Below, one piece after another: positions 1 through 52,890 of a stretch of 64,000 nucleotides of DNA (positions within the stretch are counted from its first letter, which is position 1; the number at the start of each line of letters is the position of its first letter). A program made the translations under genes and the position numbers. The stretch lies in the NCBI GenBank assembly GCA_000004985.1, contig GG738881.1; one strand, 5' to 3'. The notes beneath the pieces are model-generated. The model saw only the letters and a list, made by a program, of their open reading frames with translations, had not been told where the DNA came from and did no database searches. This DNA comes from Naegleria gruberi. Lineage: Eukaryota.

Positions 1-5
1 TCAGA

Positions 6-1560
6 ATGTCTCTCCCCCTAACCAAAAAGCTGAAGAGTTTTGTTCGTGAATTTGTTGATTATGCATCAACGCTATCCACTGGATATGTGATTGGAGCAAA
101 TTTATTTGGATTAATATTTATTGCTTTTCTTTCTTTTATGATTTATACAGTAATGACAAATTATTGGGATACTTTACAAAAAGTAAGAATAATGCTCAAC
201 TATTTACCTTTGGATACTATTGATAGAAATGATGTATTGAGAAACAACGTGCTTTATCACTCATATCCATCAATAGTAGAAATTAATGTGTTGAATAACA
301 GCTCAAAAAGAAGTAGCAACAATACATACTTGGAAAACTTGTCAGAATTCATCAATAATCACATTGAAGGAACAGCTGTTCTCAATGAAAAAGGAGAAGT
401 GGAGGTAATCAATGTTTCAGCTCACAGAATGTTTGGAAGTAAACCTGCAGATATTTTGGGAGCTACATTCTTTAAACTGGTTGAGAATAGTTATTTGGAC
501 AAGATGAAAAAGACAATGAGTTCATTATGTGAGGCAGCTAAAAAAGCTTCTGAAGCTACCACATCTGAGCAATCAAAATTGACAGACACTATTGAGGTGG
601 ATTGTTTTAGAATGAATCAAACCAAATTCCCTGCCAAATTATCATTTTTTACCAGTAATATTACAGGAAAGGGAATTATGATTGTTTGCACCATTAAGGA
701 TATCACTTCAGAGAAGAAACAAAATGCCCTCCTTGCAGAAGAAAAGAAAAATTCTGAAAATCTCTTGAAGAATATATTACCTGAGGGTGTAGCAGCAAGA
801 TTAAAGAAGGGTGAAACATTCATTGCTGAGAAATTGAATGACATTACATGTTTCTTTTCAGATATGGTTGGATTCACCAAAATTTCAAGCAATATGCAAG
901 CAACAGATCTTGTCAAAATGTTGAATTATGTTGTGAATGGATTTGACAAATTGACTGAAAAGTATGATTTGGAAAAGATCAAAACCATTGGAGATGCTTA
1001 CTTTGTGGTTGGAGGACTCAAAGGTTCTTCAGACCATCCTGAAAGTATGCTCAAATTTGCAATTGAAACATTTGATGTAATTAAGGATTTCAACACGAAT
1101 GGAACGCTTCACAATGGAGAATTTTTAAATATCAGAGTTGGAATTAACACTGGTTCATGTGTTGCAGGTGTAATTGGTGTAAGTATCATTACAAAAATAT
1201 ATAATTAATATTATTAATTAACTGAATTAGATTAAAAAATTTGCCTATGATTTATGGGGTGATACCATCAATACAGCCTCTCGTATGGAATCAACAGGAG
1301 TTCCCGGAAGGATTCAAATTTCCAGAACAACCTATGAAAGAGTTTATGATTTGGGCTTTGAATTTGATGAAAGACAAGTTGAAGTGAAAGGAAAAGGACG
1401 TATGCAAGCATATCTTCTCAATTCCAAACATCATACCAATCCAGATCCATCTAAATCCACTCCAATTGGAGGTGATGATGCAGATGGTGAGGTGGTAGTT
1501 CAGAAATTAAACCAAGGTCAATCAATGTTCATTGAATCTACTACAATGGAAGAAAACTAA
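6..1560 (+). CDS. Class III adenylyl cyclase with an N-terminal TM segment and a PAS domain. Two exons: 6-1178 and 1231-1560, with a 52-bp intron 1179-1230 (gtaagt...ttag). The 5' end may lie outside the window.
   Basis: The cyclase motifs are present: FSDMVGFT, KIKTIGDAYF, GINTGSCVAGVIG|IKKFAYDLWGDTINTASRMES. The exon 1 and exon 2 ORFs are in different frames and are joined in-frame by the GT..AG intron. A PAS-like segment (NEKGEVEVINVSAHRMFGSKPADILG...IKDITSEKK) precedes a coiled-coil region. The specificity residues are Lys (KIKTIG) and Asp (YDLWG), which is the adenylyl-cyclase type. Confidence 0.85.
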
Positions 1561-1680: not shown

Positions 1681-2418
1681 ATGCAAAAAATTCAAAATAA
1701 AAAAATGTTTGAACCAAAACTAATTTCCCGCCCAATGTCATCCCATTCCTCACGATCAAATAGTTTAAAAACCATTTCCAGAATTAGTGGATTGAGTTTA
1801 ATAATAATGTTCTTTGCAGCCATGCACGCAGAAATGATGGTCAGAGCAAAACTAATCATTCCGAATAATGTTCATCAAACGCTCGATAATATTCGTGATC
1901 ATAATTGGTTGTTTTATAGTGGCTTGCTTTCTTATTTAATTGTTTTAATGTGTGATTTGGTAGTTTCTGTCGGAATGCACATTTACCTGAAGAGATTTGA
2001 TGAGAAATTGTCGTGGATTGTTGCATCAATGAGAGTGATTTATACAATGATATTTTCCTATGCCATTATACAATTGTTTGTTGGGTTTCAATTGGCGCTT
2101 CATCCAAAATTTGAAAAGCAAGTGACTTGTATGAAGTATTTTGAAGAGTTTGAAATGATTTTCAATGGAGCTTTGATTTTATTTGGAGTTTATTTGATAT
2201 TTGCTGCTTGGTTGTGTAAGAAATCGAATTTAATTTACAAGTGGGTCTGTATTTTGTTGGCTATTGCTGGATTGGCTTATTGTGTGGATAATATTTTAAA
2301 GTTGAGTTATAGTAAGGAATATTATGTGGAACATTATCAATCTGTGACCCTGCCTCTTGTTGCTATTCCAGCAATATTTGGAGAAGTAGGATTGGCTATT
2401 TCACTACTCAGACAGTGA
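1681..2418 (+). CDS. Multi-pass membrane protein resembling the bacterial DUF4386 family. The ORF is open from 1567; the start was chosen at the first plausible Met.
   Basis: The product has 4-5 hydrophobic helices. Its motif layout (AEMMVRAKLIIP...NIRDHNWLFYSGLLSYLIVLMCDLVV...AIAGLAYCVDNILKLSYSKEYYVE...IPAIFGEVGLAISLL) parallels DUF4386 proteins (AE..VR..LI.P, FR.G..S.L...D, AGLGYLIDS...Y.E, IPAFI.E..L). Confidence 0.55.
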   Translation: MQKIQNKKMFEPKLISRPMSSHSSRSNSLKTISRISGLSLIIMFFAAMHAEMMVRAKLIIPNNVHQTLDNIRDHNWLFYSGLLSYLIVLMCDLVVSVGMHIYLKRFDEKLSWIVASMRVIYTMIFSYAIIQLFVGFQLALHPKFEKQVTCMKYFEEFEMIFNGALILFGVYLIFAAWLCKKSNLIYKWVCILLAIAGLAYCVDNILKLSYSKEYYVEHYQSVTLPLVAIPAIFGEVGLAISLLRQ

Positions 2419-2752
2419 ATTTGATATAAATAATTTCAATTATAATTGGAAAATAATTCACTCATTAATACTTATGGGATTGACAGAGATCGGAGAATGT
2501 TTTCTAAACCATTAGCAAGCTTTCTTATAATTGCAGAAAATAACCAAACCAAAAGAAATGTCAGAAGTCAGTCCCATTTATTGTTAAACTATTACCAATA
2601 ATCACCACAGCTACATTTTCCATCTTTGATATGATGATACCTATTGGCATCTCTTACAATAATTTCCATGCCTACAAAGTGATTTCTCTTTTTCTTCCTC
2701 TGATGTCAGTTGGGTATGAGTTGTTTTATTCAGAAACTAATATTTCAAACAA

Positions 2753-3262
2753 TTATTCCATATTTTTCATATTATAAATTGGAACATTAGCCACCAACTG
2801 AGTGGCAAATACCTTTGGATCTGTCTTGAATCTATTTCTCAGAATATCTTTCTTATCTTGCTCCAAATTACTGTAAACTCTCTCAACAATCATATCAATC
2901 ACCTCACTGTACAATTGTAAATGATTGGCTGCGAATGTAATTAAATCCAAATCAATTAGTGAACCTCGATCTTGTTCCTCCCAACTGGTCATTCCAAGCA
3001 TTGTATTAATGAGTGCACCTTTGGTTTCATACCAATCTCTGGCTTGTTGCTGTTCAGTTTGAGTCATTTTCGAATAGGATTCAAAGGCAGGTCCGAAGAA
3101 TGATTCCAACATGTGTGGATCTTCGGCCAGGAAGGAGGGAAATCCCCAACTGTTTGGATGAGCAGTACCTTCCATTAGAGAGGCTGCAATACTTTGCACC
3201 AATATTTTATGTTTAAATTCATCCAAATGAGATGCTTGTTGATCTTGAGACATTTTTTTCAC
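2753..3262 (-). CDS. Hypothetical 169-aa protein, intronless, no recognised domain.
   Basis: Clean ORF with start and stop and coding-type codon usage, located in a gene-dense region between two annotated genes. Confidence 0.4.
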   Translation of the reverse strand: MKKMSQDQQASHLDEFKHKILVQSIAASLMEGTAHPNSWGFPSFLAEDPHMLESFFGPAFESYSKMTQTEQQQARDWYETKGALINTMLGMTSWEEQDRGSLIDLDLITFAANHLQLYSEVIDMIVERVYSNLEQDKKDILRNRFKTDPKVFATQLVANVPIYNMKNME

Positions 3263-3364
3263 TTTATTGCACGATTTTAAAATTCAAACTCTAAATATAC
3301 CATTCACCAAATCATTAAAAAGAAATATGTTTAAATTAAGAGGAATTTTTTACTAGAATACAAT

Positions 3365-4926
3365 TTACTCAATGTTAGCAGAGATACTGAGATCAGCTTG
3401 AGTCAAACCCATGTTACCGTTACCAAACAAATTGTGTGGGTCAATCTTTTGCTTGAGACCCTTCAAGATGTCAACACCTTGATCTCTGACAACTTCATTC
3501 ATCCATTCTCTTCTGAGCTTACCAATACCGTGGTGGTGAGACAAACTTCCTCCTTGGAGCAAGATTTCATCTCTGGCTTCAGATTCAATTTCAGAGAAGA
3601 CCTTAATTGGATCACTCAATCCTCTAAAGATGAAACCATAATAGAAGTAGACACAAGCACCAGTTTCATAAGTTTGAGTAACACGAGCAGAAACCCAAGG
3701 AACTGATGGAACACCCTTCTTCTTGGCAGATTCCTTAACTCTTTCTTCAACCTTCTTAATCATTGGAACAATGTTAGACCATGGAACAGAGGTTTCAAAG
3801 CTTTCGGCCATAAAGTAATAATTGAAACCATAATCTCTCAAATAAGCAATAACATAGGTAAGCAAATATCCTCTAGAACCAGCTTCAGCACCAGCCTTAA
3901 GACCACCATACTTGGAAGTAATATCATAAATAATCTTTTGTTGTCTATCAACTTCTTCTTGAGTACCTTCAAAGAGCAATGTGACAACACACATCTTTTC
4001 TGGATCAAAACCACAGACCNNNNNNNNNNNNNNNNNNNNNNNNNNNNNNNNNNNNNNNNNNNNNNNNNNNNNNNNNNNNNNNNNNNNNNNNNNNNNNNNN
4101 NNNNNNNNNNNNNNNNNNNNNNNNNNNNNNNNNNNNNNNNNNNNNNNNNNNNNNNNNNNNNNNNNNNNTCGTGACCAAGAGTCAAATTAAACTTATCCTT
4201 AAGTTCCTTTTGTAATTCAATACCAATAGCACCAGCTTCAATAACAGCAGTATTGGATTCAAAATCAACACTCAAAATACGATCCATTTCTTGAGTATCA
4301 ATAGAAACAATCATTCTCTTTTCATTTTCTGGACAGAGCAAAGCTTGAGTGACGTTAGTACCACCACCATATGGAATAATTGTTAATTGTTCAGGATATT
4401 TAGTAGCAATAGAAACAATCTTTTCAACATGATCGTGTGAATCTGGATAGATGACAACGTCAACAAGTCTCTTGAATTTTCCGTATCTGAGTTGATAAAT
4501 TTCTTGACAACAGTGACCATGGGAGTGCATCAAACGGACTTCATCATCAAAAGACAAATACTTGAAGCAATTAGCTTGTTTAAGTTCATCAACGAATGAT
4601 TTACAAATTACTGGCTTGTGGATCTTTTGTTGCATCTCAGGCCAAGATTGAGCAGGAGAAGCATATCTAGTGTCCAAACCAGTAAAGTTTTCAAACCATG
4701 GACGGAAATCAGGAATACATTTACCAGATAAAACATAACGATCACCAGTAACATAAACGTCCTTCTTTTCATCCATAGTAAAATCGGTATCCTTGTATCC
4801 CCATCCGTTCCACTTGGCCAATTTTTGTCTCTTGTTTGGAATACCAGTACCCATCTTTTCCTTGGACATTGTCAATAGAGTAGGAGAAGTTGGAACGCCA
4901 CCAGCGCAAACATTAGAAGACACCAT
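3365..4926 (-). CDS. Alkyldihydroxyacetonephosphate synthase (FAD-linked oxidase family). Its middle is interrupted by the assembly gap 4020-4168.
   Basis: The N-terminal signature KLAKWNGWGYKD...GDRYVLSGKCIPDF and the FAD-binding region IIPYGGGTNV are present. The C-terminal half contains HHHGIGKLRREW. The two halves are read in different apparent frames only because of the N-gap. Confidence 0.85.
4020..4168. other. Assembly gap (149 N).
   Basis: Run of N in the sequence. Confidence 1.
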
Positions 4927-5508
4927 ATTATTATTGATGATGATGACGGTGTTGTTTGCAAATGAGAGCCGATCATTTGCATACGACGTTGTGCTCTCTC
5001 CATTTGTTGTTGGTTCATTTTTTTTTCAAAGGCTTTTTTTTTGAATATTTTTTCAAAGGCTAAAAATCAAAACTTCACACAGCAATCTTGGTGTTTCTGA
5101 ACGAGGATGTTAAGATCGTGCTGCGAATGTTAGTTGGAATGTTTGTGGATTGATATTTTGTGAAGAGGAGATGAAAAAGTGAAAGGCAGTTGAGAGGTTA
5201 AGTGAAAAATTACGTGTGAAAATTGTAATGTGATTAATAGAATATTCTGAAAGAAGATAAGTTGACAAAGGAGGGAAAACACAGTTTTTGGGGTTTGGAA
5301 AATTTAAGGAGTATTGTAAGAAGTGTTTCATCATATGTTTCTTGATGTTCTGATATCAGAAATGGTTTAAAAAGAGGGAGAATGTTCAATAATGTGTGTA
5401 CGATATTGGATATTGTGTGCGAGTAAATGTCCCACCGCTCTTCAAAAAATTGCCAAGATTGTAATTCATTCAGTGTCACAATTTCTATTTTGTAATAACA
5501 ATGAGAAG

Positions 5509-5579
5509 GCGTCGATGGTTTAGTGGTAGAATACGGCGTTGCCATCGCCGTGACCCGGGTTCAATTCCCGGTCGACGCA
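5509..5579 (+). tRNA. tRNA-Gly-GCC: tRNA-Gly (anticodon GCC).
   Basis: Cloverleaf GCGTCGA/TCGACGC acceptor stem, D-arm GGTTTAGTGGTAGAATAC, anticodon loop TTGCCAT, T-arm CCCGG GTTCAATT CCGGG, discriminator A. T-run downstream. Confidence 0.95.
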
Positions 5580-5919
5580 CTCCGAAATTAGTTTTATCTT
5601 TGGTAATTCTTGTTTTTATTTTTTATTAATTTAATCATCAAAAGAACACAAGCGTATCTACAATATTCTCAAATTTCAAGTCTTATATTGATCAAGATAA
5701 TCATCACAGTTTGAGCACTATTTTTTTGCAAAGATATTTTTTACTTTAAAAAAAATTGTTCCAACGAAAGGAAAAAGTATATTCTGCAACAATTAACATT
5801 TTTTGATCAAAATACTCATAGGAAATACACTTTTGACATAGTCTAATATGTACAAACAGACACGTGTTTCAAAAAAGCTAGGAAATCTGTCACAACTCAA
5901 CTAGAAAATGAACAATTGT

Positions 5920-8262: not shown

Positions 8263-8491
8263 TTTGATGATTAATGATAATTTTTTTGTGGTGGAAGAAA
8301 AATGGTGAAAAATTGATCTAGTATTTTGTTTCAGCAAGTGGAAGGTAAATGTCAATGCAAAAAGGATGAGTGCTGATGGATTTTGAGTATGTATTAATGT
8401 TTGTCCTTGTTTTGTGCTTGCCCGAGTGGTTCAAGTTAAAAATTGAATTGTGTAAAAGAATATGTGAGGGAAAATAAGAAAATGAATGTAT

Positions 8492-8565
8492 GCAGCGATA
8501 GATCAGTTGGTTAGATCGTAAGCCTAACACGCTTAAGGTCGCGGGTTCAAGCCCCGCTCGCTGTA
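8492..8565 (+). tRNA. tRNA-Val-AAC: tRNA-Val (anticodon AAC).
   Basis: The acceptor stem is GCAGCGA/TCGCTGT with a G1-U72 wobble pair. The anticodon arm AAGCC-TAACACG-CTTAA matches the eukaryotic Val-AAC family. T-arm GCGGG TTCAAGC CCCGC and a T4 run downstream. Confidence 0.9.
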
Positions 8566-8636
8566 GCCTTTTGCATGATAATTTATTAATTTAAGAACGG
8601 GCTAAAAAGTTACAATTTATTTGGATTGCTTTAATG

Positions 8637-10408: not shown

Positions 10409-11406
10409 NNNNNNNNNNNNNNNNNNNNNNNNNNNNNNNNNNNNNNNNNNNNNNNNNNNNNNNNNNNNNNNNNNNNNNNNNNNNNNNNNNNNNNNNNNNN
10501 NNNNNNNNNNNNNNNNNNNNNNNNNNNNNNNNNNNNNNNNNNNNNNNNNNNNNNNNNNNNNNNNNNNNNNNNNNNNNNNNNNNNNNNNNNNNNNNNNNNN
10601 NNNNNNNNNNNNNNNNNNNNNNNNNNNNNNNNNNNNNNNNNNNNNNNNNNNNNNNNNNNNNNNNNNNNNNNNNNNNNNNNNNNNNNNNNNNNNNNNNNNN
10701 NNNNNNNNNNNNNNNNNNNNNNNNNNNNNNNNNNNNNNNNNNNNNNNNNNNNNNNNNNNNNNNNNNNNNNNNNNNNNNNNNNNNNNNNNNNNNNNNNNNN
10801 NNNNNNNNNNNNNNNNNNNNNNNNNNNNNNNNNNNNNNNNNNNNNNNNNNNNNNNNNNNNNNNNNNNNNNNNNNNNNNNNNNNNNNNNNNNNNNNNNNNN
10901 NNNNNNNNNNNNNNNNNNNNNNNNNNNNNNNNNNNNNNNNNNNNNNNNNNNNNNNNNNNNNNNNNNNNNNNNNNNNNNNNNNNNNNNNNNNNNNNNNNNN
11001 NNNNNNNNNNNNNNNNNNNNNNNNNNNNNNNNNNNNNNNNNNNNNNNNNNNNNNNNNNNNNNNNNNNNNNNNNNNNNNNNNNNNNNNNNNNNNNNNNNNN
11101 NNNNNNNNNNNNNNNNNNNNNNNNNNNNNNNNNNNNNNNNNNNNNNNNNNNNNNNNNNNNNNNNNNNNNNNNNNNNNNNNNNNNNNNNNNNNNNNNNNNN
11201 NNNNNNNNNNNNNNNNNNNNNNNNNNNNNNNNNNNNNNNNNNNNNNNNNNNNNNNNNNNNNNNNNNNNNNNNNNNNNNNNNNNNNNNNNNNNNNNNNNNN
11301 NNNNNNNNNNNNNNNNNNNNNNNNNNNNNNNNNNNNNNNNNNNNNNNNNNNNNNNNNNNNNNNNNNNNNNNNNNNNNNNNNNNNNNNNNNNNNNNNNNNN
11401 NNNNNN
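10409..11406. other. Assembly gap (998 N).
   Basis: Run of N in the sequence. Confidence 1.
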
Positions 11407-13136: not shown

Positions 13137-16100
13137 NNNNNNNNNNNNNNNNNNNNNNNNNNNNNNNNNNNNNNNNNNNNNNNNNNNNNNNNNNNNNNNN
13201 NNNNNNNNNNNNNNNNNNNNNNNNNNNNNNNNNNNNNNNNNNNNNNNNNNNNNNNNNNNNNNNNNNNNNNNNNNNNNNNNNNNNNNNNNNNNNNNNNNNN
13301 NNNNNNNNNNNNNNNNNNNNNNNNNNNNNNNNNNNNNNNNNNNNNNNNNNNNNNNNNNNNNNNNNNNNNNNNNNNNNNNNNNNNNNNNNNNNNNNNNNNN
13401 NNNNNNNNNNNNNNNNNNNNNNNNNNNNNNNNNNNNNNNNNNNNNNNNNNNNNNNNNNNNNNNNNNNNNNNNNNNNNNNNNNNNNNNNNNNNNNNNNNNN
13501 NNNNNNNNNNNNNNNNNNNNNNNNNNNNNNNNNNNNNNNNNNNNNNNNNNNNNNNNNNNNNNNNNNNNNNNNNNNNNNNNNNNNNNNNNNNNNNNNNNNN
13601 NNNNNNNNNNNNNNNNNNNNNNNNNNNNNNNNNNNNNNNNNNNNNNNNNNNNNNNNNNNNNNNNNNNNNNNNNNNNNNNNNNNNNNNNNNNNNNNNNNNN
13701 NNNNNNNNNNNNNNNNNNNNNNNNNNNNNNNNNNNNNNNNNNNNNNNNNNNNNNNNNNNNNNNNNNNNNNNNNNNNNNNNNNNNNNNNNNNNNNNNNNNN
13801 NNNNNNNNNNNNNNNNNNNNNNNNNNNNNNNNNNNNNNNNNNNNNNNNNNNNNNNNNNNNNNNNNNNNNNNNNNNNNNNNNNNNNNNNNNNNNNNNNNNN
13901 NNNNNNNNNNNNNNNNNNNNNNNNNNNNNNNNNNNNNNNNNNNNNNNNNNNNNNNNNNNNNNNNNNNNNNNNNNNNNNNNNNNNNNNNNNNNNNNNNNNN
14001 NNNNNNNNNNNNNNNNNNNNNNNNNNNNNNNNNNNNNNNNNNNNNNNNNNNNNNNNNNNNNNNNNNNNNNNNNNNNNNNNNNNNNNNNNNNNNNNNNNNN
14101 NNNNNNNNNNNNNNNNNNNNNNNNNNNNNNNNNNNNNNNNNNNNNNNNNNNNNNNNNNNNNNNNNNNNNNNNNNNNNNNNNNNNNNNNNNNNNNNNNNNN
14201 NNNNNNNNNNNNNNNNNNNNNNNNNNNNNNNNNNNNNNNNNNNNNNNNNNNNNNNNNNNNNNNNNNNNNNNNNNNNNNNNNNNNNNNNNNNNNNNNNNNN
14301 NNNNNNNNNNNNNNNNNNNNNNNNNNNNNNNNNNNNNNNNNNNNNNNNNNNNNNNNNNNNNNNNNNNNNNNNNNNNNNNNNNNNNNNNNNNNNNNNNNNN
14401 NNNNNNNNNNNNNNNNNNNNNNNNNNNNNNNNNNNNNNNNNNNNNNNNNNNNNNNNNNNNNNNNNNNNNNNNNNNNNNNNNNNNNNNNNNNNNNNNNNNN
14501 NNNNNNNNNNNNNNNNNNNNNNNNNNNNNNNNNNNNNNNNNNNNNNNNNNNNNNNNNNNNNNNNNNNNNNNNNNNNNNNNNNNNNNNNNNNNNNNNNNNN
14601 NNNNNNNNNNNNNNNNNNNNNNNNNNNNNNNNNNNNNNNNNNNNNNNNNNNNNNNNNNNNNNNNNNNNNNNNNNNNNNNNNNNNNNNNNNNNNNNNNNNN
14701 NNNNNNNNNNNNNNNNNNNNNNNNNNNNNNNNNNNNNNNNNNNNNNNNNNNNNNNNNNNNNNNNNNNNNNNNNNNNNNNNNNNNNNNNNNNNNNNNNNNN
14801 NNNNNNNNNNNNNNNNNNNNNNNNNNNNNNNNNNNNNNNNNNNNNNNNNNNNNNNNNNNNNNNNNNNNNNNNNNNNNNNNNNNNNNNNNNNNNNNNNNNN
14901 NNNNNNNNNNNNNNNNNNNNNNNNNNNNNNNNNNNNNNNNNNNNNNNNNNNNNNNNNNNNNNNNNNNNNNNNNNNNNNNNNNNNNNNNNNNNNNNNNNNN
15001 NNNNNNNNNNNNNNNNNNNNNNNNNNNNNNNNNNNNNNNNNNNNNNNNNNNNNNNNNNNNNNNNNNNNNNNNNNNNNNNNNNNNNNNNNNNNNNNNNNNN
15101 NNNNNNNNNNNNNNNNNNNNNNNNNNNNNNNNNNNNNNNNNNNNNNNNNNNNNNNNNNNNNNNNNNNNNNNNNNNNNNNNNNNNNNNNNNNNNNNNNNNN
15201 NNNNNNNNNNNNNNNNNNNNNNNNNNNNNNNNNNNNNNNNNNNNNNNNNNNNNNNNNNNNNNNNNNNNNNNNNNNNNNNNNNNNNNNNNNNNNNNNNNNN
15301 NNNNNNNNNNNNNNNNNNNNNNNNNNNNNNNNNNNNNNNNNNNNNNNNNNNNNNNNNNNNNNNNNNNNNNNNNNNNNNNNNNNNNNNNNNNNNNNNNNNN
15401 NNNNNNNNNNNNNNNNNNNNNNNNNNNNNNNNNNNNNNNNNNNNNNNNNNNNNNNNNNNNNNNNNNNNNNNNNNNNNNNNNNNNNNNNNNNNNNNNNNNN
15501 NNNNNNNNNNNNNNNNNNNNNNNNNNNNNNNNNNNNNNNNNNNNNNNNNNNNNNNNNNNNNNNNNNNNNNNNNNNNNNNNNNNNNNNNNNNNNNNNNNNN
15601 NNNNNNNNNNNNNNNNNNNNNNNNNNNNNNNNNNNNNNNNNNNNNNNNNNNNNNNNNNNNNNNNNNNNNNNNNNNNNNNNNNNNNNNNNNNNNNNNNNNN
15701 NNNNNNNNNNNNNNNNNNNNNNNNNNNNNNNNNNNNNNNNNNNNNNNNNNNNNNNNNNNNNNNNNNNNNNNNNNNNNNNNNNNNNNNNNNNNNNNNNNNN
15801 NNNNNNNNNNNNNNNNNNNNNNNNNNNNNNNNNNNNNNNNNNNNNNNNNNNNNNNNNNNNNNNNNNNNNNNNNNNNNNNNNNNNNNNNNNNNNNNNNNNN
15901 NNNNNNNNNNNNNNNNNNNNNNNNNNNNNNNNNNNNNNNNNNNNNNNNNNNNNNNNNNNNNNNNNNNNNNNNNNNNNNNNNNNNNNNNNNNNNNNNNNNN
16001 NNNNNNNNNNNNNNNNNNNNNNNNNNNNNNNNNNNNNNNNNNNNNNNNNNNNNNNNNNNNNNNNNNNNNNNNNNNNNNNNNNNNNNNNNNNNNNNNNNNN

Positions 16101-19100
16101 NNNNNNNNNNNNNNNNNNNNNNNNNNNNNNNNNNNNNNNNNNNNNNNNNNNNNNNNNNNNNNNNNNNNNNNNNNNNNNNNNNNNNNNNNNNNNNNNNNNN
16201 NNNNNNNNNNNNNNNNNNNNNNNNNNNNNNNNNNNNNNNNNNNNNNNNNNNNNNNNNNNNNNNNNNNNNNNNNNNNNNNNNNNNNNNNNNNNNNNNNNNN
16301 NNNNNNNNNNNNNNNNNNNNNNNNNNNNNNNNNNNNNNNNNNNNNNNNNNNNNNNNNNNNNNNNNNNNNNNNNNNNNNNNNNNNNNNNNNNNNNNNNNNN
16401 NNNNNNNNNNNNNNNNNNNNNNNNNNNNNNNNNNNNNNNNNNNNNNNNNNNNNNNNNNNNNNNNNNNNNNNNNNNNNNNNNNNNNNNNNNNNNNNNNNNN
16501 NNNNNNNNNNNNNNNNNNNNNNNNNNNNNNNNNNNNNNNNNNNNNNNNNNNNNNNNNNNNNNNNNNNNNNNNNNNNNNNNNNNNNNNNNNNNNNNNNNNN
16601 NNNNNNNNNNNNNNNNNNNNNNNNNNNNNNNNNNNNNNNNNNNNNNNNNNNNNNNNNNNNNNNNNNNNNNNNNNNNNNNNNNNNNNNNNNNNNNNNNNNN
16701 NNNNNNNNNNNNNNNNNNNNNNNNNNNNNNNNNNNNNNNNNNNNNNNNNNNNNNNNNNNNNNNNNNNNNNNNNNNNNNNNNNNNNNNNNNNNNNNNNNNN
16801 NNNNNNNNNNNNNNNNNNNNNNNNNNNNNNNNNNNNNNNNNNNNNNNNNNNNNNNNNNNNNNNNNNNNNNNNNNNNNNNNNNNNNNNNNNNNNNNNNNNN
16901 NNNNNNNNNNNNNNNNNNNNNNNNNNNNNNNNNNNNNNNNNNNNNNNNNNNNNNNNNNNNNNNNNNNNNNNNNNNNNNNNNNNNNNNNNNNNNNNNNNNN
17001 NNNNNNNNNNNNNNNNNNNNNNNNNNNNNNNNNNNNNNNNNNNNNNNNNNNNNNNNNNNNNNNNNNNNNNNNNNNNNNNNNNNNNNNNNNNNNNNNNNNN
17101 NNNNNNNNNNNNNNNNNNNNNNNNNNNNNNNNNNNNNNNNNNNNNNNNNNNNNNNNNNNNNNNNNNNNNNNNNNNNNNNNNNNNNNNNNNNNNNNNNNNN
17201 NNNNNNNNNNNNNNNNNNNNNNNNNNNNNNNNNNNNNNNNNNNNNNNNNNNNNNNNNNNNNNNNNNNNNNNNNNNNNNNNNNNNNNNNNNNNNNNNNNNN
17301 NNNNNNNNNNNNNNNNNNNNNNNNNNNNNNNNNNNNNNNNNNNNNNNNNNNNNNNNNNNNNNNNNNNNNNNNNNNNNNNNNNNNNNNNNNNNNNNNNNNN
17401 NNNNNNNNNNNNNNNNNNNNNNNNNNNNNNNNNNNNNNNNNNNNNNNNNNNNNNNNNNNNNNNNNNNNNNNNNNNNNNNNNNNNNNNNNNNNNNNNNNNN
17501 NNNNNNNNNNNNNNNNNNNNNNNNNNNNNNNNNNNNNNNNNNNNNNNNNNNNNNNNNNNNNNNNNNNNNNNNNNNNNNNNNNNNNNNNNNNNNNNNNNNN
17601 NNNNNNNNNNNNNNNNNNNNNNNNNNNNNNNNNNNNNNNNNNNNNNNNNNNNNNNNNNNNNNNNNNNNNNNNNNNNNNNNNNNNNNNNNNNNNNNNNNNN
17701 NNNNNNNNNNNNNNNNNNNNNNNNNNNNNNNNNNNNNNNNNNNNNNNNNNNNNNNNNNNNNNNNNNNNNNNNNNNNNNNNNNNNNNNNNNNNNNNNNNNN
17801 NNNNNNNNNNNNNNNNNNNNNNNNNNNNNNNNNNNNNNNNNNNNNNNNNNNNNNNNNNNNNNNNNNNNNNNNNNNNNNNNNNNNNNNNNNNNNNNNNNNN
17901 NNNNNNNNNNNNNNNNNNNNNNNNNNNNNNNNNNNNNNNNNNNNNNNNNNNNNNNNNNNNNNNNNNNNNNNNNNNNNNNNNNNNNNNNNNNNNNNNNNNN
18001 NNNNNNNNNNNNNNNNNNNNNNNNNNNNNNNNNNNNNNNNNNNNNNNNNNNNNNNNNNNNNNNNNNNNNNNNNNNNNNNNNNNNNNNNNNNNNNNNNNNN
18101 NNNNNNNNNNNNNNNNNNNNNNNNNNNNNNNNNNNNNNNNNNNNNNNNNNNNNNNNNNNNNNNNNNNNNNNNNNNNNNNNNNNNNNNNNNNNNNNNNNNN
18201 NNNNNNNNNNNNNNNNNNNNNNNNNNNNNNNNNNNNNNNNNNNNNNNNNNNNNNNNNNNNNNNNNNNNNNNNNNNNNNNNNNNNNNNNNNNNNNNNNNNN
18301 NNNNNNNNNNNNNNNNNNNNNNNNNNNNNNNNNNNNNNNNNNNNNNNNNNNNNNNNNNNNNNNNNNNNNNNNNNNNNNNNNNNNNNNNNNNNNNNNNNNN
18401 NNNNNNNNNNNNNNNNNNNNNNNNNNNNNNNNNNNNNNNNNNNNNNNNNNNNNNNNNNNNNNNNNNNNNNNNNNNNNNNNNNNNNNNNNNNNNNNNNNNN
18501 NNNNNNNNNNNNNNNNNNNNNNNNNNNNNNNNNNNNNNNNNNNNNNNNNNNNNNNNNNNNNNNNNNNNNNNNNNNNNNNNNNNNNNNNNNNNNNNNNNNN
18601 NNNNNNNNNNNNNNNNNNNNNNNNNNNNNNNNNNNNNNNNNNNNNNNNNNNNNNNNNNNNNNNNNNNNNNNNNNNNNNNNNNNNNNNNNNNNNNNNNNNN
18701 NNNNNNNNNNNNNNNNNNNNNNNNNNNNNNNNNNNNNNNNNNNNNNNNNNNNNNNNNNNNNNNNNNNNNNNNNNNNNNNNNNNNNNNNNNNNNNNNNNNN
18801 NNNNNNNNNNNNNNNNNNNNNNNNNNNNNNNNNNNNNNNNNNNNNNNNNNNNNNNNNNNNNNNNNNNNNNNNNNNNNNNNNNNNNNNNNNNNNNNNNNNN
18901 NNNNNNNNNNNNNNNNNNNNNNNNNNNNNNNNNNNNNNNNNNNNNNNNNNNNNNNNNNNNNNNNNNNNNNNNNNNNNNNNNNNNNNNNNNNNNNNNNNNN
19001 NNNNNNNNNNNNNNNNNNNNNNNNNNNNNNNNNNNNNNNNNNNNNNNNNNNNNNNNNNNNNNNNNNNNNNNNNNNNNNNNNNNNNNNNNNNNNNNNNNNN

Positions 19101-22100
19101 NNNNNNNNNNNNNNNNNNNNNNNNNNNNNNNNNNNNNNNNNNNNNNNNNNNNNNNNNNNNNNNNNNNNNNNNNNNNNNNNNNNNNNNNNNNNNNNNNNNN
19201 NNNNNNNNNNNNNNNNNNNNNNNNNNNNNNNNNNNNNNNNNNNNNNNNNNNNNNNNNNNNNNNNNNNNNNNNNNNNNNNNNNNNNNNNNNNNNNNNNNNN
19301 NNNNNNNNNNNNNNNNNNNNNNNNNNNNNNNNNNNNNNNNNNNNNNNNNNNNNNNNNNNNNNNNNNNNNNNNNNNNNNNNNNNNNNNNNNNNNNNNNNNN
19401 NNNNNNNNNNNNNNNNNNNNNNNNNNNNNNNNNNNNNNNNNNNNNNNNNNNNNNNNNNNNNNNNNNNNNNNNNNNNNNNNNNNNNNNNNNNNNNNNNNNN
19501 NNNNNNNNNNNNNNNNNNNNNNNNNNNNNNNNNNNNNNNNNNNNNNNNNNNNNNNNNNNNNNNNNNNNNNNNNNNNNNNNNNNNNNNNNNNNNNNNNNNN
19601 NNNNNNNNNNNNNNNNNNNNNNNNNNNNNNNNNNNNNNNNNNNNNNNNNNNNNNNNNNNNNNNNNNNNNNNNNNNNNNNNNNNNNNNNNNNNNNNNNNNN
19701 NNNNNNNNNNNNNNNNNNNNNNNNNNNNNNNNNNNNNNNNNNNNNNNNNNNNNNNNNNNNNNNNNNNNNNNNNNNNNNNNNNNNNNNNNNNNNNNNNNNN
19801 NNNNNNNNNNNNNNNNNNNNNNNNNNNNNNNNNNNNNNNNNNNNNNNNNNNNNNNNNNNNNNNNNNNNNNNNNNNNNNNNNNNNNNNNNNNNNNNNNNNN
19901 NNNNNNNNNNNNNNNNNNNNNNNNNNNNNNNNNNNNNNNNNNNNNNNNNNNNNNNNNNNNNNNNNNNNNNNNNNNNNNNNNNNNNNNNNNNNNNNNNNNN
20001 NNNNNNNNNNNNNNNNNNNNNNNNNNNNNNNNNNNNNNNNNNNNNNNNNNNNNNNNNNNNNNNNNNNNNNNNNNNNNNNNNNNNNNNNNNNNNNNNNNNN
20101 NNNNNNNNNNNNNNNNNNNNNNNNNNNNNNNNNNNNNNNNNNNNNNNNNNNNNNNNNNNNNNNNNNNNNNNNNNNNNNNNNNNNNNNNNNNNNNNNNNNN
20201 NNNNNNNNNNNNNNNNNNNNNNNNNNNNNNNNNNNNNNNNNNNNNNNNNNNNNNNNNNNNNNNNNNNNNNNNNNNNNNNNNNNNNNNNNNNNNNNNNNNN
20301 NNNNNNNNNNNNNNNNNNNNNNNNNNNNNNNNNNNNNNNNNNNNNNNNNNNNNNNNNNNNNNNNNNNNNNNNNNNNNNNNNNNNNNNNNNNNNNNNNNNN
20401 NNNNNNNNNNNNNNNNNNNNNNNNNNNNNNNNNNNNNNNNNNNNNNNNNNNNNNNNNNNNNNNNNNNNNNNNNNNNNNNNNNNNNNNNNNNNNNNNNNNN
20501 NNNNNNNNNNNNNNNNNNNNNNNNNNNNNNNNNNNNNNNNNNNNNNNNNNNNNNNNNNNNNNNNNNNNNNNNNNNNNNNNNNNNNNNNNNNNNNNNNNNN
20601 NNNNNNNNNNNNNNNNNNNNNNNNNNNNNNNNNNNNNNNNNNNNNNNNNNNNNNNNNNNNNNNNNNNNNNNNNNNNNNNNNNNNNNNNNNNNNNNNNNNN
20701 NNNNNNNNNNNNNNNNNNNNNNNNNNNNNNNNNNNNNNNNNNNNNNNNNNNNNNNNNNNNNNNNNNNNNNNNNNNNNNNNNNNNNNNNNNNNNNNNNNNN
20801 NNNNNNNNNNNNNNNNNNNNNNNNNNNNNNNNNNNNNNNNNNNNNNNNNNNNNNNNNNNNNNNNNNNNNNNNNNNNNNNNNNNNNNNNNNNNNNNNNNNN
20901 NNNNNNNNNNNNNNNNNNNNNNNNNNNNNNNNNNNNNNNNNNNNNNNNNNNNNNNNNNNNNNNNNNNNNNNNNNNNNNNNNNNNNNNNNNNNNNNNNNNN
21001 NNNNNNNNNNNNNNNNNNNNNNNNNNNNNNNNNNNNNNNNNNNNNNNNNNNNNNNNNNNNNNNNNNNNNNNNNNNNNNNNNNNNNNNNNNNNNNNNNNNN
21101 NNNNNNNNNNNNNNNNNNNNNNNNNNNNNNNNNNNNNNNNNNNNNNNNNNNNNNNNNNNNNNNNNNNNNNNNNNNNNNNNNNNNNNNNNNNNNNNNNNNN
21201 NNNNNNNNNNNNNNNNNNNNNNNNNNNNNNNNNNNNNNNNNNNNNNNNNNNNNNNNNNNNNNNNNNNNNNNNNNNNNNNNNNNNNNNNNNNNNNNNNNNN
21301 NNNNNNNNNNNNNNNNNNNNNNNNNNNNNNNNNNNNNNNNNNNNNNNNNNNNNNNNNNNNNNNNNNNNNNNNNNNNNNNNNNNNNNNNNNNNNNNNNNNN
21401 NNNNNNNNNNNNNNNNNNNNNNNNNNNNNNNNNNNNNNNNNNNNNNNNNNNNNNNNNNNNNNNNNNNNNNNNNNNNNNNNNNNNNNNNNNNNNNNNNNNN
21501 NNNNNNNNNNNNNNNNNNNNNNNNNNNNNNNNNNNNNNNNNNNNNNNNNNNNNNNNNNNNNNNNNNNNNNNNNNNNNNNNNNNNNNNNNNNNNNNNNNNN
21601 NNNNNNNNNNNNNNNNNNNNNNNNNNNNNNNNNNNNNNNNNNNNNNNNNNNNNNNNNNNNNNNNNNNNNNNNNNNNNNNNNNNNNNNNNNNNNNNNNNNN
21701 NNNNNNNNNNNNNNNNNNNNNNNNNNNNNNNNNNNNNNNNNNNNNNNNNNNNNNNNNNNNNNNNNNNNNNNNNNNNNNNNNNNNNNNNNNNNNNNNNNNN
21801 NNNNNNNNNNNNNNNNNNNNNNNNNNNNNNNNNNNNNNNNNNNNNNNNNNNNNNNNNNNNNNNNNNNNNNNNNNNNNNNNNNNNNNNNNNNNNNNNNNNN
21901 NNNNNNNNNNNNNNNNNNNNNNNNNNNNNNNNNNNNNNNNNNNNNNNNNNNNNNNNNNNNNNNNNNNNNNNNNNNNNNNNNNNNNNNNNNNNNNNNNNNN
22001 NNNNNNNNNNNNNNNNNNNNNNNNNNNNNNNNNNNNNNNNNNNNNNNNNNNNNNNNNNNNNNNNNNNNNNNNNNNNNNNNNNNNNNNNNNNNNNNNNNNN

Positions 22101-22455
22101 NNNNNNNNNNNNNNNNNNNNNNNNNNNNNNNNNNNNNNNNNNNNNNNNNNNNNNNNNNNNNNNNNNNNNNNNNNNNNNNNNNNNNNNNNNNNNNNNNNNN
22201 NNNNNNNNNNNNNNNNNNNNNNNNNNNNNNNNNNNNNNNNNNNNNNNNNNNNNNNNNNNNNNNNNNNNNNNNNNNNNNNNNNNNNNNNNNNNNNNNNNNN
22301 NNNNNNNNNNNNNNNNNNNNNNNNNNNNNNNNNNNNNNNNNNNNNNNNNNNNNNNNNNNNNNNNNNNNNNNNNNNNNNNNNNNNNNNNNNNNNNNNNNNN
22401 NNNNNNNNNNNNNNNNNNNNNNNNNNNNNNNNNNNNNNNNNNNNNNNNNNNNNNN
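13137..22455. other. Assembly gap (9319 N).
   Basis: Run of N. It is flanked on the right by a tandem-repeat coding region, which is the likely cause of the assembly break. Confidence 1.
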
Positions 22456-25713: not shown

Positions 25714-26614
25714 ATAAATTATTCTTTTAATTTAGCTATTAAAGTGAAGAAATTTCTTTAATCCGAGATGGCGACGGTTTGCTTGTGTTTTTTTAAAGGC
25801 TGATTCTTTCTAAAATGCCATTCTTTTGGCGCCAAATGTAACGGCAAATAAAGCCTATTACAATATCTTTCCTTTTGAATACCATTTCATCACTACCAAG
25901 AGTTGTTTTACAAGGATCTTCGTGTTTACATGTACGTAATAAGTGCTGAATTTGATTGAAAACTTTGATAAAGTTACTCCTATTCACAAAATTCAAGATA
26001 AAAAATATGAACAAATTGTAAAAGGTACCTGGAAGGATGTTCTTCCTCTAATTCCTTTTTGAAAAGCAATATCTGCCATAAATGTCAGATTGACCACATA
26101 AACAATAACAAAAAGAAAAGGTCAAGCCATTATGACTCTCATCTCAAAACCTCGTTCTCCAGATGTCAACAAACAACGCTACAAGCCCACCATCTTCAAC
26201 ATGTATGGCGAGTAATAATGAAGAGTCAAGTCCAGGAAATACATCCTAACCAAAGATGAAACAATGTGGAAGAATTACTGGTTGGATAATTTATTGGCTG
26301 TTGGTGCTCTTTGGATGGCTAGTAATAACTGTTCGTGGATTATGAGAGCTTCACCTGTTAATCCAAATAATCCAGAAGATTATAGAAAGGATCTCTTTCT
26401 TGGAAGTAATCACACTGTGCATAAGGGATATCCTGCTATCATTATGGACTACATGGTTCGCTGTTGCTGCTAATTTGATTCTCTGTGAAATTTACATTAA
26501 TATGGTGGTAAGAAAGAAGGATGAAAAGAAAGTCCCAACAATTCATACTTTTCATGTAACTTCAGCTTCTCTTTGACAATAGGTTAACAAAACGAATAAT
26601 AAAAGGGTTAAAAA

Positions 26615-26731
26615 GACTACAGCACCACAGGTTCCCAAGTTGTCTCCAACCTCAGTACTGATGTGGCTCGACGATGCTTAACTTCTCAAATCGGACGGGA
26701 TGAGGTGCATTCATCGTGATATGGCCGTAGC
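26615..26731 (-). rRNA. 5S: 5S ribosomal RNA gene, a solitary copy.
   Basis: The minus-strand sequence GCTACGGCCATATCACGATGAATGCACCTCATCCCGTCCGATTTGAGAAGTTAAGCATCGTCGAGCCACATCAGTACTGAGGTTGGAGACAACTTGGGAACCTGTGGTGCTGTAGTC matches the eukaryotic 5S consensus. Helix I pairs GCTACGGC with GCTGTAGT, the box A element AGTTAAGC and a GGGAAC loop E-like region are present, and a TTTT terminator follows. Confidence 0.9.
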
Positions 26732-26879
26732 CATTCAATTCCTTAATCTTTCCATTTTCAATCATATCAGAAATCAGTTGATTGAAAAATCTTGAGATTG
26801 GTTTCTTAGATTATTGAGCTCAATGATTTTGGCAAAAGATGGAATATATTATTTATTGTTAAAACAGTTTGTAGATTAT

Positions 26880-52809: not shown

Positions 52810-52890
52810 TTTCATGTTGTGGTCTAATTGGTCTAACATTATATCAAAATGATAAAAGAAAATGATCTATTCTTAAAAATTCTGAATAAT

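What the first reader, a model, noticed from the sequence alone, without database searches (positions are those of the whole stretch)
6..1560. PAS-domain adenylyl cyclase with AC-type specificity residues, adjacent to a DUF4386-like membrane protein gene
The class III cyclase domain has the metal-binding Asp residues and the Lys/Asp pair (KIKTIG and YDLWGD) that specify ATP rather than GTP. It is fused to a TM segment and a PAS sensor, an architecture typical of bacterial PAS-ACs. Immediately downstream (1681-2418) lies a 4-5 TM protein resembling DUF4386, a predominantly bacterial family. A small unassigned ORF follows on the minus strand at 2753-3262. The cyclase has a 52-bp spliceosomal intron, so it is a resident nuclear gene. 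The trio may be an old bacterial acquisition.
Basis: partly seen in the sequence, partly recalled or inferred. Interest (0 to 1): 0.5.

Follow-up and report, generated by a model that had tools for sequence, protein, structure and literature searches.

The report
Naegleria PAS adenylyl cyclase, cut short
This is the tail end of one of the many sensor-linked cAMP-making enzymes already known in the amoeba Naegleria gruberi, and the two genes beside it are unrelated neighbours, not a block imported together from bacteria.

Summary
The sequence features are real. Bases 6-1560 encode TM + PAS + class III cyclase domain (Pfam 4.5e-56 and 3.4e-10), interrupted by a genuine 52-bp GT-AG intron (1179-1230). 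All six catalytic residues are present, including the ATP-specifying Lys326/Asp398. ORF 1681-2418 is a clear DUF4386 protein (1.8e-33). ORF 2753-3253(-) is a coding-looking orphan.

The window is Naegleria gruberi nuclear DNA, and three corrections apply.

1. The cyclase ORF is open at base 1. Its ATG aligns with residue 442 of the closest homologue. In that homologue and in N. fowleri, the PAS-cyclase part is preceded by two further TM segments and a roughly 800-950 aa TPR_TmcB region. The window therefore probably holds only the C-terminal ~500 aa of a ~1,700-aa receptor cyclase.

2. The cyclase belongs to a paralogue family shared by Naegleria and Acrasis. Naegleria is reported to have at least 81 cyclases. 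Any bacterial origin is ancient and concerns the family, not this locus.

3. The trio is not a unit. The Willaertia DUF4386 orthologue has different neighbours, and the orphan ORF has no bacterial relatives.

DUF4386 on its own does look like a bacterial-type gene, nearest to Bacteroidota at 30-36% identity, acquired before the Naegleria/Willaertia split.

Verdict: an ordinary family member of low interest.

The parts
1..1178 (+). Penultimate exon of the cyclase gene, as far as the window shows it. The frame is open to base 1, and the ATG at 6 is probably internal. Encodes TM, PAS, linker and the first 60% of the catalytic domain.
   Evidence: Query residue 1 aligns to P0001 residue 442, preceded by the same Arg (RMSLPLTKKL vs RMSIPLTKKL).
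87..143 (+). Last transmembrane segment (aa 28-46, VIGANLFGLIFIAFLSFMI) before the cytoplasmic PAS domain.
   Evidence: Kyte-Doolittle 2.38 over 19 aa. Homologues have a TM at the equivalent position plus 1-2 more upstream.
336..725 (+). PAS domain (aa 111-240), ending in a conserved DIT motif (Asp232, nt 699-701).
   Evidence: Pfam PAS_9 3.4e-10 and PAS 1e-5; TIGR00229 1.7e-5. AF2 model pLDDT 91.5 with canonical PAS topology. Foldseek E 2e-9 to FixL, DosP and LOV PAS domains.
726..824 (+). Helical linker and cyclase-transducer-like element (…EEKKNSENLLKNILPEGVAARLKKGE…).
   Evidence: Aligns with the segment preceding AC9 C2 (query 248-272). Partial Pfam hit to the C-terminal end of HNOBA. Nearly invariant across homologues.
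825..1422 (+). Class III (IIIa-like) cyclase catalytic domain, aa 274-455, interrupted by the intron. Key residues: Asp286 (861-863), Lys326 (981-983), Asp330 (993-995), Asp398 (1249-1251), Asn405 (1270-1272), Arg409 (1282-1284).
   Evidence: Pfam Guanylate_cyc 4.5e-56. PDB phmmer: AC9 5.7e-67, mycobacterial Cya 3e-45, ANP receptor 3.5e-43. Residue coordinates.
1179..1230 (+). 52-bp spliceosomal intron, phase 0 (GTAAGT…TTAG).
   Evidence: The same position holds a ~55-bp intron in the closest homologue L002. It is absent in N. fowleri and Acrasis.
1231..1560 (+). Last exon: the rest of the catalytic domain, a non-conserved 45-aa tail and a TAA stop.
1681..2418 (+). DUF4386 membrane protein gene, single exon, six predicted helices. 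The start is probably ATG 1681 or ATG 1705. This is a neighbour, not part of the cyclase system.
   Evidence: Pfam 1.8e-33. 100% identical to the N. gruberi predicted protein P0121, whose model starts at Met43. Willaertia orthologue 69% id, starting at the equivalent of Met9. AF2 pLDDT 91.
2753..3253 (-). Orphan ORF of 166 aa, convergent with DUF4386. Likely a real lineage-specific gene of unknown function.
   Evidence: No Pfam, NCBIfam or PDB match. The only database hit is its own copy on a 99%-identical contig. In-frame codon log-odds 0.34, like host genes, against about -0.3 to -0.4 out of frame.

Best explanation
Bases 1-1560 are the 3' end of a Naegleria gruberi nuclear gene for a large membrane receptor-type adenylyl cyclase.

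Shown:
- The visible part encodes a transmembrane helix, a cytoplasmic PAS domain, a helical linker with a cyclase-transducer-like motif, and a class IIIa-type catalytic domain.
- That domain carries both metal-binding Asp, the Lys/Asp pair that selects ATP, and the Asn/Arg that stabilise the transition state.

Inferred from established class III cyclase mechanism:
- All six residues sit in one chain, so the enzyme should work as a homodimer with two symmetric active sites at the interface, making cAMP.

Inferred from the two closest homologues:
- The missing upstream part contains two more TM helices, a ~200-aa extracytoplasmic loop and a ~800-950 aa N-terminal TPR_TmcB region.
- A signal perceived outside or in the membrane would pass through the last TM helix into the PAS dimer. 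From there it would travel via the DIT motif and coiled-coil linker to reorient the two catalytic domains.
- The PAS may additionally bind a small cytoplasmic ligand. It lacks the LOV cysteine and the FixL-type haem histidine.

The neighbours:
- The DUF4386 gene and the orphan ORF are independent genes in a compact genome.
- DUF4386 is a bacterial-type membrane protein, probably acquired separately by horizontal transfer before Naegleria and Willaertia diverged.
For: Organism: the DUF4386 ORF is 100% identical to an N. gruberi protein, and contig L003 is 99% identical to window 1702-5353.

Domains.

Catalytic residues: alignment to AC9 C1/C2, positions.

Class IIIa affinity: the best PDB relatives are mammalian tmACs, Rv1625c-type Cya and receptor GCs. 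Class IIIb CyaC (1wc0) scores only 2e-7.

PAS fold: AF2 pLDDT 91.5, Foldseek hits.

5' truncation:
-.
- L002: a TPR_TmcB ORF is joined in frame to the PAS-cyclase ORF by a 44-bp intron.
- N. fowleri L016: a TPR_TmcB ORF lies 85 bp upstream on the same strand, and the TM1-coding frame is open upstream of the annotated start.

Family membership:
- In the NJ tree the window sequence groups with N. gruberi and N. fowleri paralogues.
- Acrasis is sister, and cyanobacterial sequences fall outside.
- Literature reports at least 81 cyclases in Naegleria (PMC9928731) and 50-80 PAS proteins in N. gruberi (bioRxiv 10.1101/2023.04.23.537977).

No gene linkage:
- Willaertia locus; L002 and L016 neighbours.
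- Intergenic gaps of 50-180 bp are normal in this window.

DUF4386 origin:
- 1476 representatives found.
- Named relatives are Bacteroidota, Cyanobium and Anaerolinea MAGs at 29-36% id.
- The N. gruberi + Willaertia pair nests among them in an NJ tree.
- Host-like codon usage.
Against: - The upstream sequence is not in the window and could not be retrieved. The N-terminal extension rests on homologues at 47-63% identity and on one matching upstream codon.
- No exact copy of this cyclase is in the protein database, so there is no independent gene model or transcript evidence.
- No enzymatic or expression data exist for this gene.
- The trees are quick neighbour-joining trees without support values, built from the best-scoring hits only. 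The sister relation to cyanobacteria and the placement of DUF4386 are therefore indicative only.
- N. fowleri shows no annotated DUF4386. A single acquisition would then need a later loss or an annotation gap.
Confidence: 0.82

Rival explanations
1. One reading: the cyclase, DUF4386 and the small ORF were acquired together from a bacterium as one block and have stayed together.
For: The three genes lie within 3.3 kb. PAS-cyclase and DUF4386 both have bacterial relatives. The cyclase catalytic domain is 50-54% identical to cyanobacterial cyclases, more than to animal ones.
Against: - Synteny is absent in Willaertia and at paralogous or homologous cyclase loci.
- ORF3 has no bacterial homologue.
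- The cyclase sits in a heterolobosean paralogue clade and is fused to a eukaryote-type TPR_TmcB region in its relatives.
- ORF3 is on the opposite strand.
- All three genes have host-like codon usage and GC.
Confidence: 0.03
2. The gene is complete as read: a 500-aa TM-PAS-cyclase starting at ATG 6, a short paralogue that lost the N-terminal region.
For: There is an ATG at base 6. Some database models of relatives are short: P0004 is 390 aa and P0009 is 527 aa.
Against: - The frame is open to the window edge. The codon before the ATG (AGA, Arg) matches the homologue's Arg441.
- Residues 1-27 align with an internal conserved segment of P0001, P0002 and P0003.
- A single TM with a 27-aa N-terminus would leave no sensor outside the cell.
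- The short database models are fragments on short contigs or partial entries.
Confidence: 0.1
3. DUF4386 is functionally tied to cyclic-nucleotide signalling, and its position 120 bp downstream of an adenylyl cyclase reflects that.
For: In 6 of 11 bacterial DUF4386 loci examined, a conserved ~192-aa cNMP_binding (Crp/Fnr-like) gene lies convergent and immediately downstream. With roughly 81+ cyclase genes (PMC9928731) in a genome I recall as having about 16,000 genes (own knowledge), chance adjacency to a cyclase is my estimate of only ~1% per gene.
Against: - Willaertia's orthologue has no cyclase nearby.
- Crp/Fnr-type regulators are very numerous in Bacteroidota and need not bind cAMP (own knowledge).
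- The six bacterial loci may reflect one conserved syntenic pair.
- Many genes were implicitly screened for a notable neighbour.
Confidence: 0.05
4. The PAS domain is a haem- or flavin-based gas, redox or light sensor that is the primary input of the enzyme.
For: The best structural matches of the PAS model are haem PAS domains (FG214, FixL, EcDOS/DosP) and LOV domains.
Against: - Identity to those is only 12-19%, which indicates a generic PAS fold.
- The long F-alpha helix (NSYLDKMKKTMSSLCEAAKKASE) has no His.
- No Cys lies in the E-alpha position of LOV.
- No His or Cys is conserved across the 21 homologues. The invariant positions are Gly, Pro and Asp of the DIT motif.
Confidence: 0.1

Closest known systems
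Heterolobosean PAS-cyclase paralogue family (N. gruberi XP-type 'predicted proteins' P0003/P0004/P0005, N. fowleri FDP41_003059 = P0002, Acrasis kona 'adenylate cyclase' P0018)
   Same: Same TM-PAS-linker-class III cyclase arrangement, 37-68% identity over PAS plus catalytic domain, and the same catalytic residues. TPR_TmcB upstream region in L002 and N. fowleri.
   Different: No exact copy of the window protein is in the database, so this paralogue seems unannotated. The intron at GVIG|IKKF is shared only with the closest homologue L002, not with N. fowleri or Acrasis.
Class IIIa nucleotidyl cyclases: mammalian membrane adenylyl cyclases (AC9, AC8, AC5) and Mycobacterium Rv1625c-type Cya
   Same: Catalytic fold and all six catalytic and specificity residues. 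A transducer-like helix precedes the catalytic domain. The membrane anchor lies N-terminal.
   Different: One catalytic domain per chain, so a homodimer like Rv1625c/Cya rather than the pseudo-heterodimer of the mammalian enzymes. A PAS domain is inserted between membrane and catalytic domain. There is no 6-TM bundle in the visible part.
Cyanobacterial PAS/GAF/CHASE-linked adenylyl cyclases
   Same: Closest non-heterolobosean catalytic domains (50-54% identity). Many also carry PAS domains directly upstream.
   Different: The PAS domain here shows no BLASTP similarity to theirs at E<=1e-3. The gene has a spliceosomal intron, and in relatives a TPR_TmcB N-terminal region.
Soluble guanylyl cyclase (H-NOX-PAS-coiled coil-cyclase)
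   Same: The order of modules: PAS, then helical linker, then class III catalytic domain. Partial Pfam hit to the end of HNOBA.
   Different: Lys/Asp (ATP) instead of Glu/Cys (GTP). Membrane-anchored, no H-NOX, and a homodimer.
Pfam DUF4386 (PF14329) of Bacteroidota and other bacteria
   Same: Full-length match (profile 1-207 of 210), with the same length and six-helix layout.
   Different: Encoded in a eukaryotic nuclear genome with host codon usage. Only 29-36% identical to named bacterial members. No adjacent Crp/Fnr-type regulator, unlike 6 of 11 bacterial loci.

Membership tests
Class III nucleotidyl cyclase (Pfam PF00211) | Catalytic domain profile match above the curated threshold | tested here: met
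   189.8 bits against a cut-off of 21.9, profile 3-182 of 183.
Class III nucleotidyl cyclase (Pfam PF00211) | Two metal-binding aspartates | tested here: met
   Asp286 (FFSDMVGF) and Asp330 (TIGDAY) align with the AC9 C1 aspartates.
Class III nucleotidyl cyclase (Pfam PF00211) | Transition-state Asn and Arg | tested here: met
   Asn405 and Arg409 in DTINTASRM align with DTVNIASRM of AC9 C2.
Adenylyl (not guanylyl) cyclase | Lys and Asp at the two base-recognition positions (Glu and Cys/Ser in guanylyl cyclases) | tested here: met
   Lys326 in EKIKTIGD and Asp398 in YDLWGD align with the Lys/Asp of AC9 C2.
Adenylyl (not guanylyl) cyclase | cAMP formation from ATP in vitro | not testable with these tools
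   Needs an enzyme assay.
Class IIIa subclass | Asp (not Thr) at the second specificity position, and closest similarity to tmAC, receptor-GC and Rv1625c catalytic domains. The definition is recalled from Linder & Schultz (own knowledge). | tested here: met
   Asp398. PDB ranking: AC9/AC8/AC5, mycobacterial Cya and ANP receptor at 1e-43 to 1e-67, against class IIIb CyaC 1wc0 at 2e-7.
PAS domain | Profile match above threshold and the five-stranded antiparallel sheet with flanking helices | tested here: met
   PAS_9 40.5 bits (cut-off 27), PAS 25.9 bits (cut-off 22.6). The AF2 model has strands 23-27, 32-36, 94-102, 108-120 and 124-133, with pLDDT 91.5. Foldseek probability 1.0 to many PAS structures.
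LOV (flavin) PAS | Conserved Cys in the GXNCRFLQ motif of the E-alpha helix | tested here: not met
   The corresponding segment is GATFFKLV, with no Cys.
FixL/DosP-type haem PAS | Proximal His on the F-alpha helix | tested here: not met
   F-alpha (domain residues 62-84) has no His, and no His is conserved in homologues.
DUF4386 (PF14329) | Full-length profile match above threshold | tested here: met
   116.6 bits against a cut-off of 27.6, profile 1-207 of 210.
Horizontally acquired gene block (trio) | Conserved adjacency of the genes in related genomes or in a donor | tested here: not met
   The Willaertia DUF4386 locus lacks both a cyclase and ORF3. Bacterial DUF4386 loci lack cyclases.
Horizontally acquired gene block (trio) | Each gene nests within bacterial sequences | tested here: inconclusive
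   DUF4386: yes, in an NJ tree. Cyclase: it forms a heterolobosean clade with cyanobacteria outside. ORF3: no homologues. The trees have no support values.
Heterolobosean TPR_TmcB-PAS-cyclase receptors | N-terminal TPR_TmcB region and additional TM helices upstream of the PAS-cyclase | not testable with these tools
   The upstream DNA lies outside the window. The feature is present in L002 and N. fowleri L016.

The most novel reading that the evidence does not exclude
DUF4386 proteins may be membrane components of cyclic-nucleotide-responsive pathways. In Bacteroidota they are paired with a dedicated cNMP-binding-domain regulator. In Naegleria gruberi a horizontally acquired copy would then have come to lie 120 bp behind an adenylyl cyclase because the two work together. 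That would give this uncharacterised family its first functional context.
Probability: 0.04. Interest if true: 0.5.

Novelty: new member of a known kind. Interest (0 to 1): 0.2.

Why it matters
The practical value is modest, and it has three parts.

1. It adds a seemingly unannotated paralogue to the already very large Naegleria cyclase repertoire. It also shows that at least this branch of the family consists of ~1,700-aa receptors (TPR_TmcB, multi-TM, PAS, cyclase). Current gene models split or truncate them, as with the N. fowleri gene pair and the metagenomic ORFs.

2. It identifies DUF4386 as a probable bacterial-to-heterolobosean transfer shared by N. gruberi and Willaertia. The N. gruberi database model of this gene appears to lack its first helix.

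3. It shows that gene adjacency in this compact genome should not be read as an operon-like unit.

None of this changes how cAMP signalling or class III cyclases are understood.

Tried and rejected
Attempts to obtain the DNA upstream of base 1 all failed:
- Exact-protein look-ups of N. gruberi P0121 and P0003 and of the exon-2 ORF were not on record.
- The 99%-identical metagenomic contig L003 stops at window base 1702.

Literature:
- The Fritz-Laylin 2010 genome paper is not held.
- No paper mentions DUF4386.
- A search for TmcB returned nothing relevant.

Searches that gave little or nothing:
The 6-sequence alignment gave 7 loci.
- The metagenome scan gave only 3 loci.
- The afdb50 fold library was unavailable.
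- ORF3 has no Pfam, NCBIfam, PDB or homologue signal. A near-identical strain carries a 1-bp deletion in it, which may be an assembly error.
- BLASTP of the PAS domain alone finds only heterolobosean-type proteins, so its origin cannot be traced.

Readings considered and rejected:
- Bacterial contamination for DUF4386. It lies on the same scaffold as intron-containing eukaryotic genes, has host codon usage, and has a Willaertia orthologue in a eukaryotic context.
- Guanylyl cyclase specificity, because of the Lys/Asp pair.
- An operon-like trio.
Full report
**What is in the sequence**

The window is AT-rich (about 33-35% GC) with three runs of N. From base 6 an ORF runs to 1208, and a second ORF in another frame covers 1285-1560. 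Removing bases 1179-1230 (52 bp, GTAAGT…TTAG) joins them in phase 0 into a 500-aa product. The junction reads AGVIG|IKKFAYDLWGD. It is collinear with homologues that read GVIGTKKFAYDLWGD or GVIGKKKFAYDLWGD, so the intron is real.

- Pfam gives Guanylate_cyc 4.5e-56 (aa 274-455) and PAS_9 3.4e-10 (aa 122-234), both above the curated thresholds. NCBIfam gives the PAS S-box.
- One strong hydrophobic segment lies at aa 28-46.
- ORF 1681-2418 matches DUF4386 over the whole profile (1.8e-33).
- The minus-strand ORF 2753-3253 matches nothing. However, its in-frame codon usage resembles the window's confirmed genes: +0.34 bits per codon against about -0.3 to -0.4 out of frame. My own estimate, not a tool result, is that an ORF this long is unlikely by chance in AT-rich DNA.

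**Which organism**

The DUF4386 ORF is 100% identical to a Naegleria gruberi predicted protein on a 380-kb scaffold. A metagenomic contig (L003) is 99% identical to window 1702-5353.

The rest of the window carries ordinary eukaryotic genes: ThiF, GLE1, EGF repeats, Fe/Mn SOD, Sgf11, RWP-RK, Ras, F-box, Sir2, LRR, a P4-ATPase, U-box and ADH. It also holds two tRNAs and a 5S rRNA. Genes are packed with gaps of 50-180 bp, so a 120-bp spacing between cyclase and DUF4386 is not special.

**The cyclase is cut by the window edge**

The reading frame is open to base 1. Against every long homologue the first residue of the window product aligns internally: residue 442 of P0001 (63% identity over 399 aa), 229 of N. 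fowleri P0002, 112 of N. gruberi P0003, and about 360 of P0005. Even the codon before the ATG (AGA, Arg) matches P0001 (…FRMSIPLTKKL…).

- **Extra TM helices.** These homologues have one or two further TM helices and a 180-215 aa loop before the TM that the window shows.
- **Contig L002 (encodes P0001).** The 821-aa ORF just upstream has a TPR_TmcB match (1.1e-12). It is joined in frame to P0001 by a 44-bp GTAAGT…TATAG intron. That gives one gene of at least about 1,760 aa.
- **N. fowleri.** A 951-aa TPR_TmcB gene lies 85 bp upstream of P0002 on the same strand. The frame encoding the first TM helix is open upstream of the annotated P0002 start and is offset by one base from the upstream ORF. 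This looks like a single gene split by a frameshift or by annotation.

I therefore infer that the window holds only the C-terminal 30% of a roughly 1,700-aa receptor. No exact copy of the window protein is in the 5.8-billion-sequence database. The gene thus seems unannotated, perhaps because the scaffold or a gap ends there. I could not retrieve the upstream DNA.

**Catalytic chemistry**

A PDB sequence search ranks mammalian AC9, AC8 and AC5, mycobacterial Cya (Rv1625c type) and the ANP receptor cyclase at 1e-43 to 1e-67. The class IIIb CyaC of Spirulina scores only 2e-7.

In the printed alignments:
- Asp286 and Asp330 align with the metal-binding aspartates of AC9 C1.
- Lys326 and Asp398 align with the adenine-selecting Lys/Asp of AC9 C2.
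- Asn405 and Arg409 align with the transition-state pair.

From established class III cyclase mechanism (own knowledge), a chain carrying all six residues forms a head-to-tail homodimer with two active sites, and Lys/Asp means ATP. The segment EEKKNSENLLKNILPEGVAARLKKGE before the domain aligns with the helix preceding AC9 C2. It is nearly invariant in the family. This corresponds to what the literature calls the cyclase transducer element (own knowledge).

**The PAS domain**

An AlphaFold2 model built with 21 homologues has pLDDT 91.5. It shows an N-cap helix, five strands, an unusually long F-alpha helix and a C-terminal helix that leaves the sheet after a conserved DIT motif.

The best structural matches are haem PAS domains (FG214, FixL, DosP) and LOV domains, at only 12-19% identity. 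The F-alpha helix has no histidine, the LOV cysteine is absent, and no His or Cys is conserved in the family. I read it as a transmitter or ligand-binding PAS without a predictable cofactor.

The likely signal path, which is inferred, runs:
1. extracytoplasmic loop or N-terminal region;
2. last TM helix;
3. PAS dimer;
4. DIT motif and coiled coil;
5. transducer element;
6. catalytic dimer.

**Evolutionary position of the cyclase**

The best hits are N. gruberi, N. fowleri and Acrasis kona proteins and unnamed eukaryote-like metagenomic sequences. After them come hundreds of cyanobacterial cyclases with 50-54% identity over the catalytic domain only.

In a neighbour-joining tree of 115 catalytic domains, the window sequence groups with N. 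gruberi P0003/4/5/6 and N. fowleri P0002/8. Acrasis and relatives form the sister group, and the remaining sequences (those that carry names are cyanobacterial) fall outside. The PAS domain alone finds only heterolobosean-type sequences.

The intron at GVIG|IKKF is shared with L002. It is absent in N. fowleri and in the intronless Acrasis gene.

Published work reports at least 81 cyclases in Naegleria (PMC9928731). It also reports 50-80 PAS proteins in N. gruberi, with a general bacterial ancestry of eukaryotic PAS domains (bioRxiv 10.1101/2023.04.23.537977). A role of cAMP in Naegleria encystation is suggested but not shown (PMC5055082). This gene is thus one more paralogue of a known expansion. 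If the family came from bacteria, that happened before Naegleria and Acrasis diverged.

**DUF4386**

An exhaustive HMMER search found 1476 cluster representatives at E<=1e-3.
- Willaertia magna has a 69%-identical orthologue.
- The next closest sequences are two unnamed ones at 42%. One of them lies on a 25%-GC 1.6-kb contig of unknown origin.
- Everything else is 27-36% identical.
- The named members are Bacteroidota (Bacteroidia MAGs, Fluviicola, Emticicia), a Cyanobium-labelled MAG and an Anaerolinea MAG.
- In an NJ tree the two heterolobosean proteins nest among these.

The gene has host-like codon usage and lies among eukaryotic genes in both amoebae, so it is not contamination. A separate bacterial acquisition before the Naegleria/Willaertia split is the simplest reading. 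N. fowleri shows no annotated copy.

The AF2 model (pLDDT 91) has six long helices. It has no specific relative among solved structures, so its function remains unknown. The N. gruberi database model starts at Met43 and omits most of helix 1. Willaertia's start corresponds to Met9, at nt 1705.

**Is the trio a unit?**

No.
- In Willaertia the DUF4386 gene lies between a pseudouridine synthase and an LRR gene. There is no cyclase, no alkyl-DHAP-synthase-like gene and no ORF3 within 10 kb.
- The homologous cyclase loci L002 and L016 have other downstream genes.
- ORF3 is an orphan on the opposite strand.

**A side observation**

In 6 of 11 bacterial DUF4386 loci a conserved ~192-aa cNMP_binding (Crp/Fnr-like) gene lies convergent and directly downstream. 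Given the Willaertia result, I treat the echo with the Naegleria cyclase neighbour as probable coincidence. I record it as the most novel reading not excluded.

**Verdict**

The gene is incomplete in the window, and the horizontal-transfer story holds at most for DUF4386 alone. This is a new, apparently unannotated member of a known and very large family. Interest is low.

Noticed in passing
L005 5635-6219(-), L006 4701-5168(-), L007 5009-5587(-), L008 4151-4729(-), L009 1182-1760(-), L013 3937-4551(-): In 6 of 11 bacterial DUF4386 loci, a highly conserved ~192-aa cNMP_binding (Crp/Fnr-like) regulator gene lies convergent and immediately downstream of DUF4386. Two other loci (L010, L011) have a zinc-type alcohol dehydrogenase/quinone oxidoreductase next door.
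   Followed up: partly
L002 1434-6827; L016 60-5355: The closest homologues of the window cyclase are about 1,700-aa genes. In L002 a TPR_TmcB ORF is joined to the PAS-cyclase ORF by a 44-bp intron (3867-3910). In N. fowleri the two parts are annotated as separate genes (951 aa and 721 aa), but they look like one gene split by a +1 frame offset near L016 2900.
   Followed up: partly
window 1681-1806: The N. gruberi database model of the DUF4386 protein (203 aa) starts at Met43. The ORF, the Pfam match (from aa 35), the AF2 helix 1 (aa 23-58) and the Willaertia orthologue all indicate an earlier start, at ATG 1681 or 1705.
   Followed up: yes
window 3365-5353 (-), N run 4020-4168: The gene here is annotated as a FAD_binding_4 / FAD-oxidase_C gene (which I read as alkyl-DHAP-synthase-like) on the near-identical contig L003. 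In the window it is interrupted by a 149-bp assembly gap, and L003 (99% identical) spans this gap.
   Followed up: partly
window 2753-3253 (-); L003 ~2700: The orphan ORF3 carries a 1-bp deletion (T run) in the 99%-identical metagenomic strain, truncating it to 103 aa. This is either an assembly error or a sign of weak constraint.
   Followed up: partly
window 5509-5580 (+), 8491-8568 (+), 26614-26732 (-): tRNA-Gly(GCC), tRNA-Val(AAC) and a full-length 5S rRNA gene are scattered among the protein-coding genes.
   Followed up: no
window 10409-11406 and 13137-22455: Two large runs of N (998 bp and 9,319 bp) make about 16% of the window unreadable. The mechanical ORF lists over them are artefacts.
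   Followed up: no
L004 (Logan SRR7132427 contig, 1,633 bp, 25% GC): The closest non-Naegleria/Willaertia DUF4386 (P0125, 42.5% id) sits on a very AT-rich short contig of unknown origin. It could be another amoeba or an AT-rich bacterium. It groups as sister to the heterolobosean pair in the NJ tree.
   Followed up: partly
window 39862-42751 (-), 51220-53802, 61552-62472 (-): Several long ORFs (354, 612, 529, 303 and 306 aa) have no Pfam match at E<=1e-5. They are presumably lineage-specific Naegleria genes.
   Followed up: no
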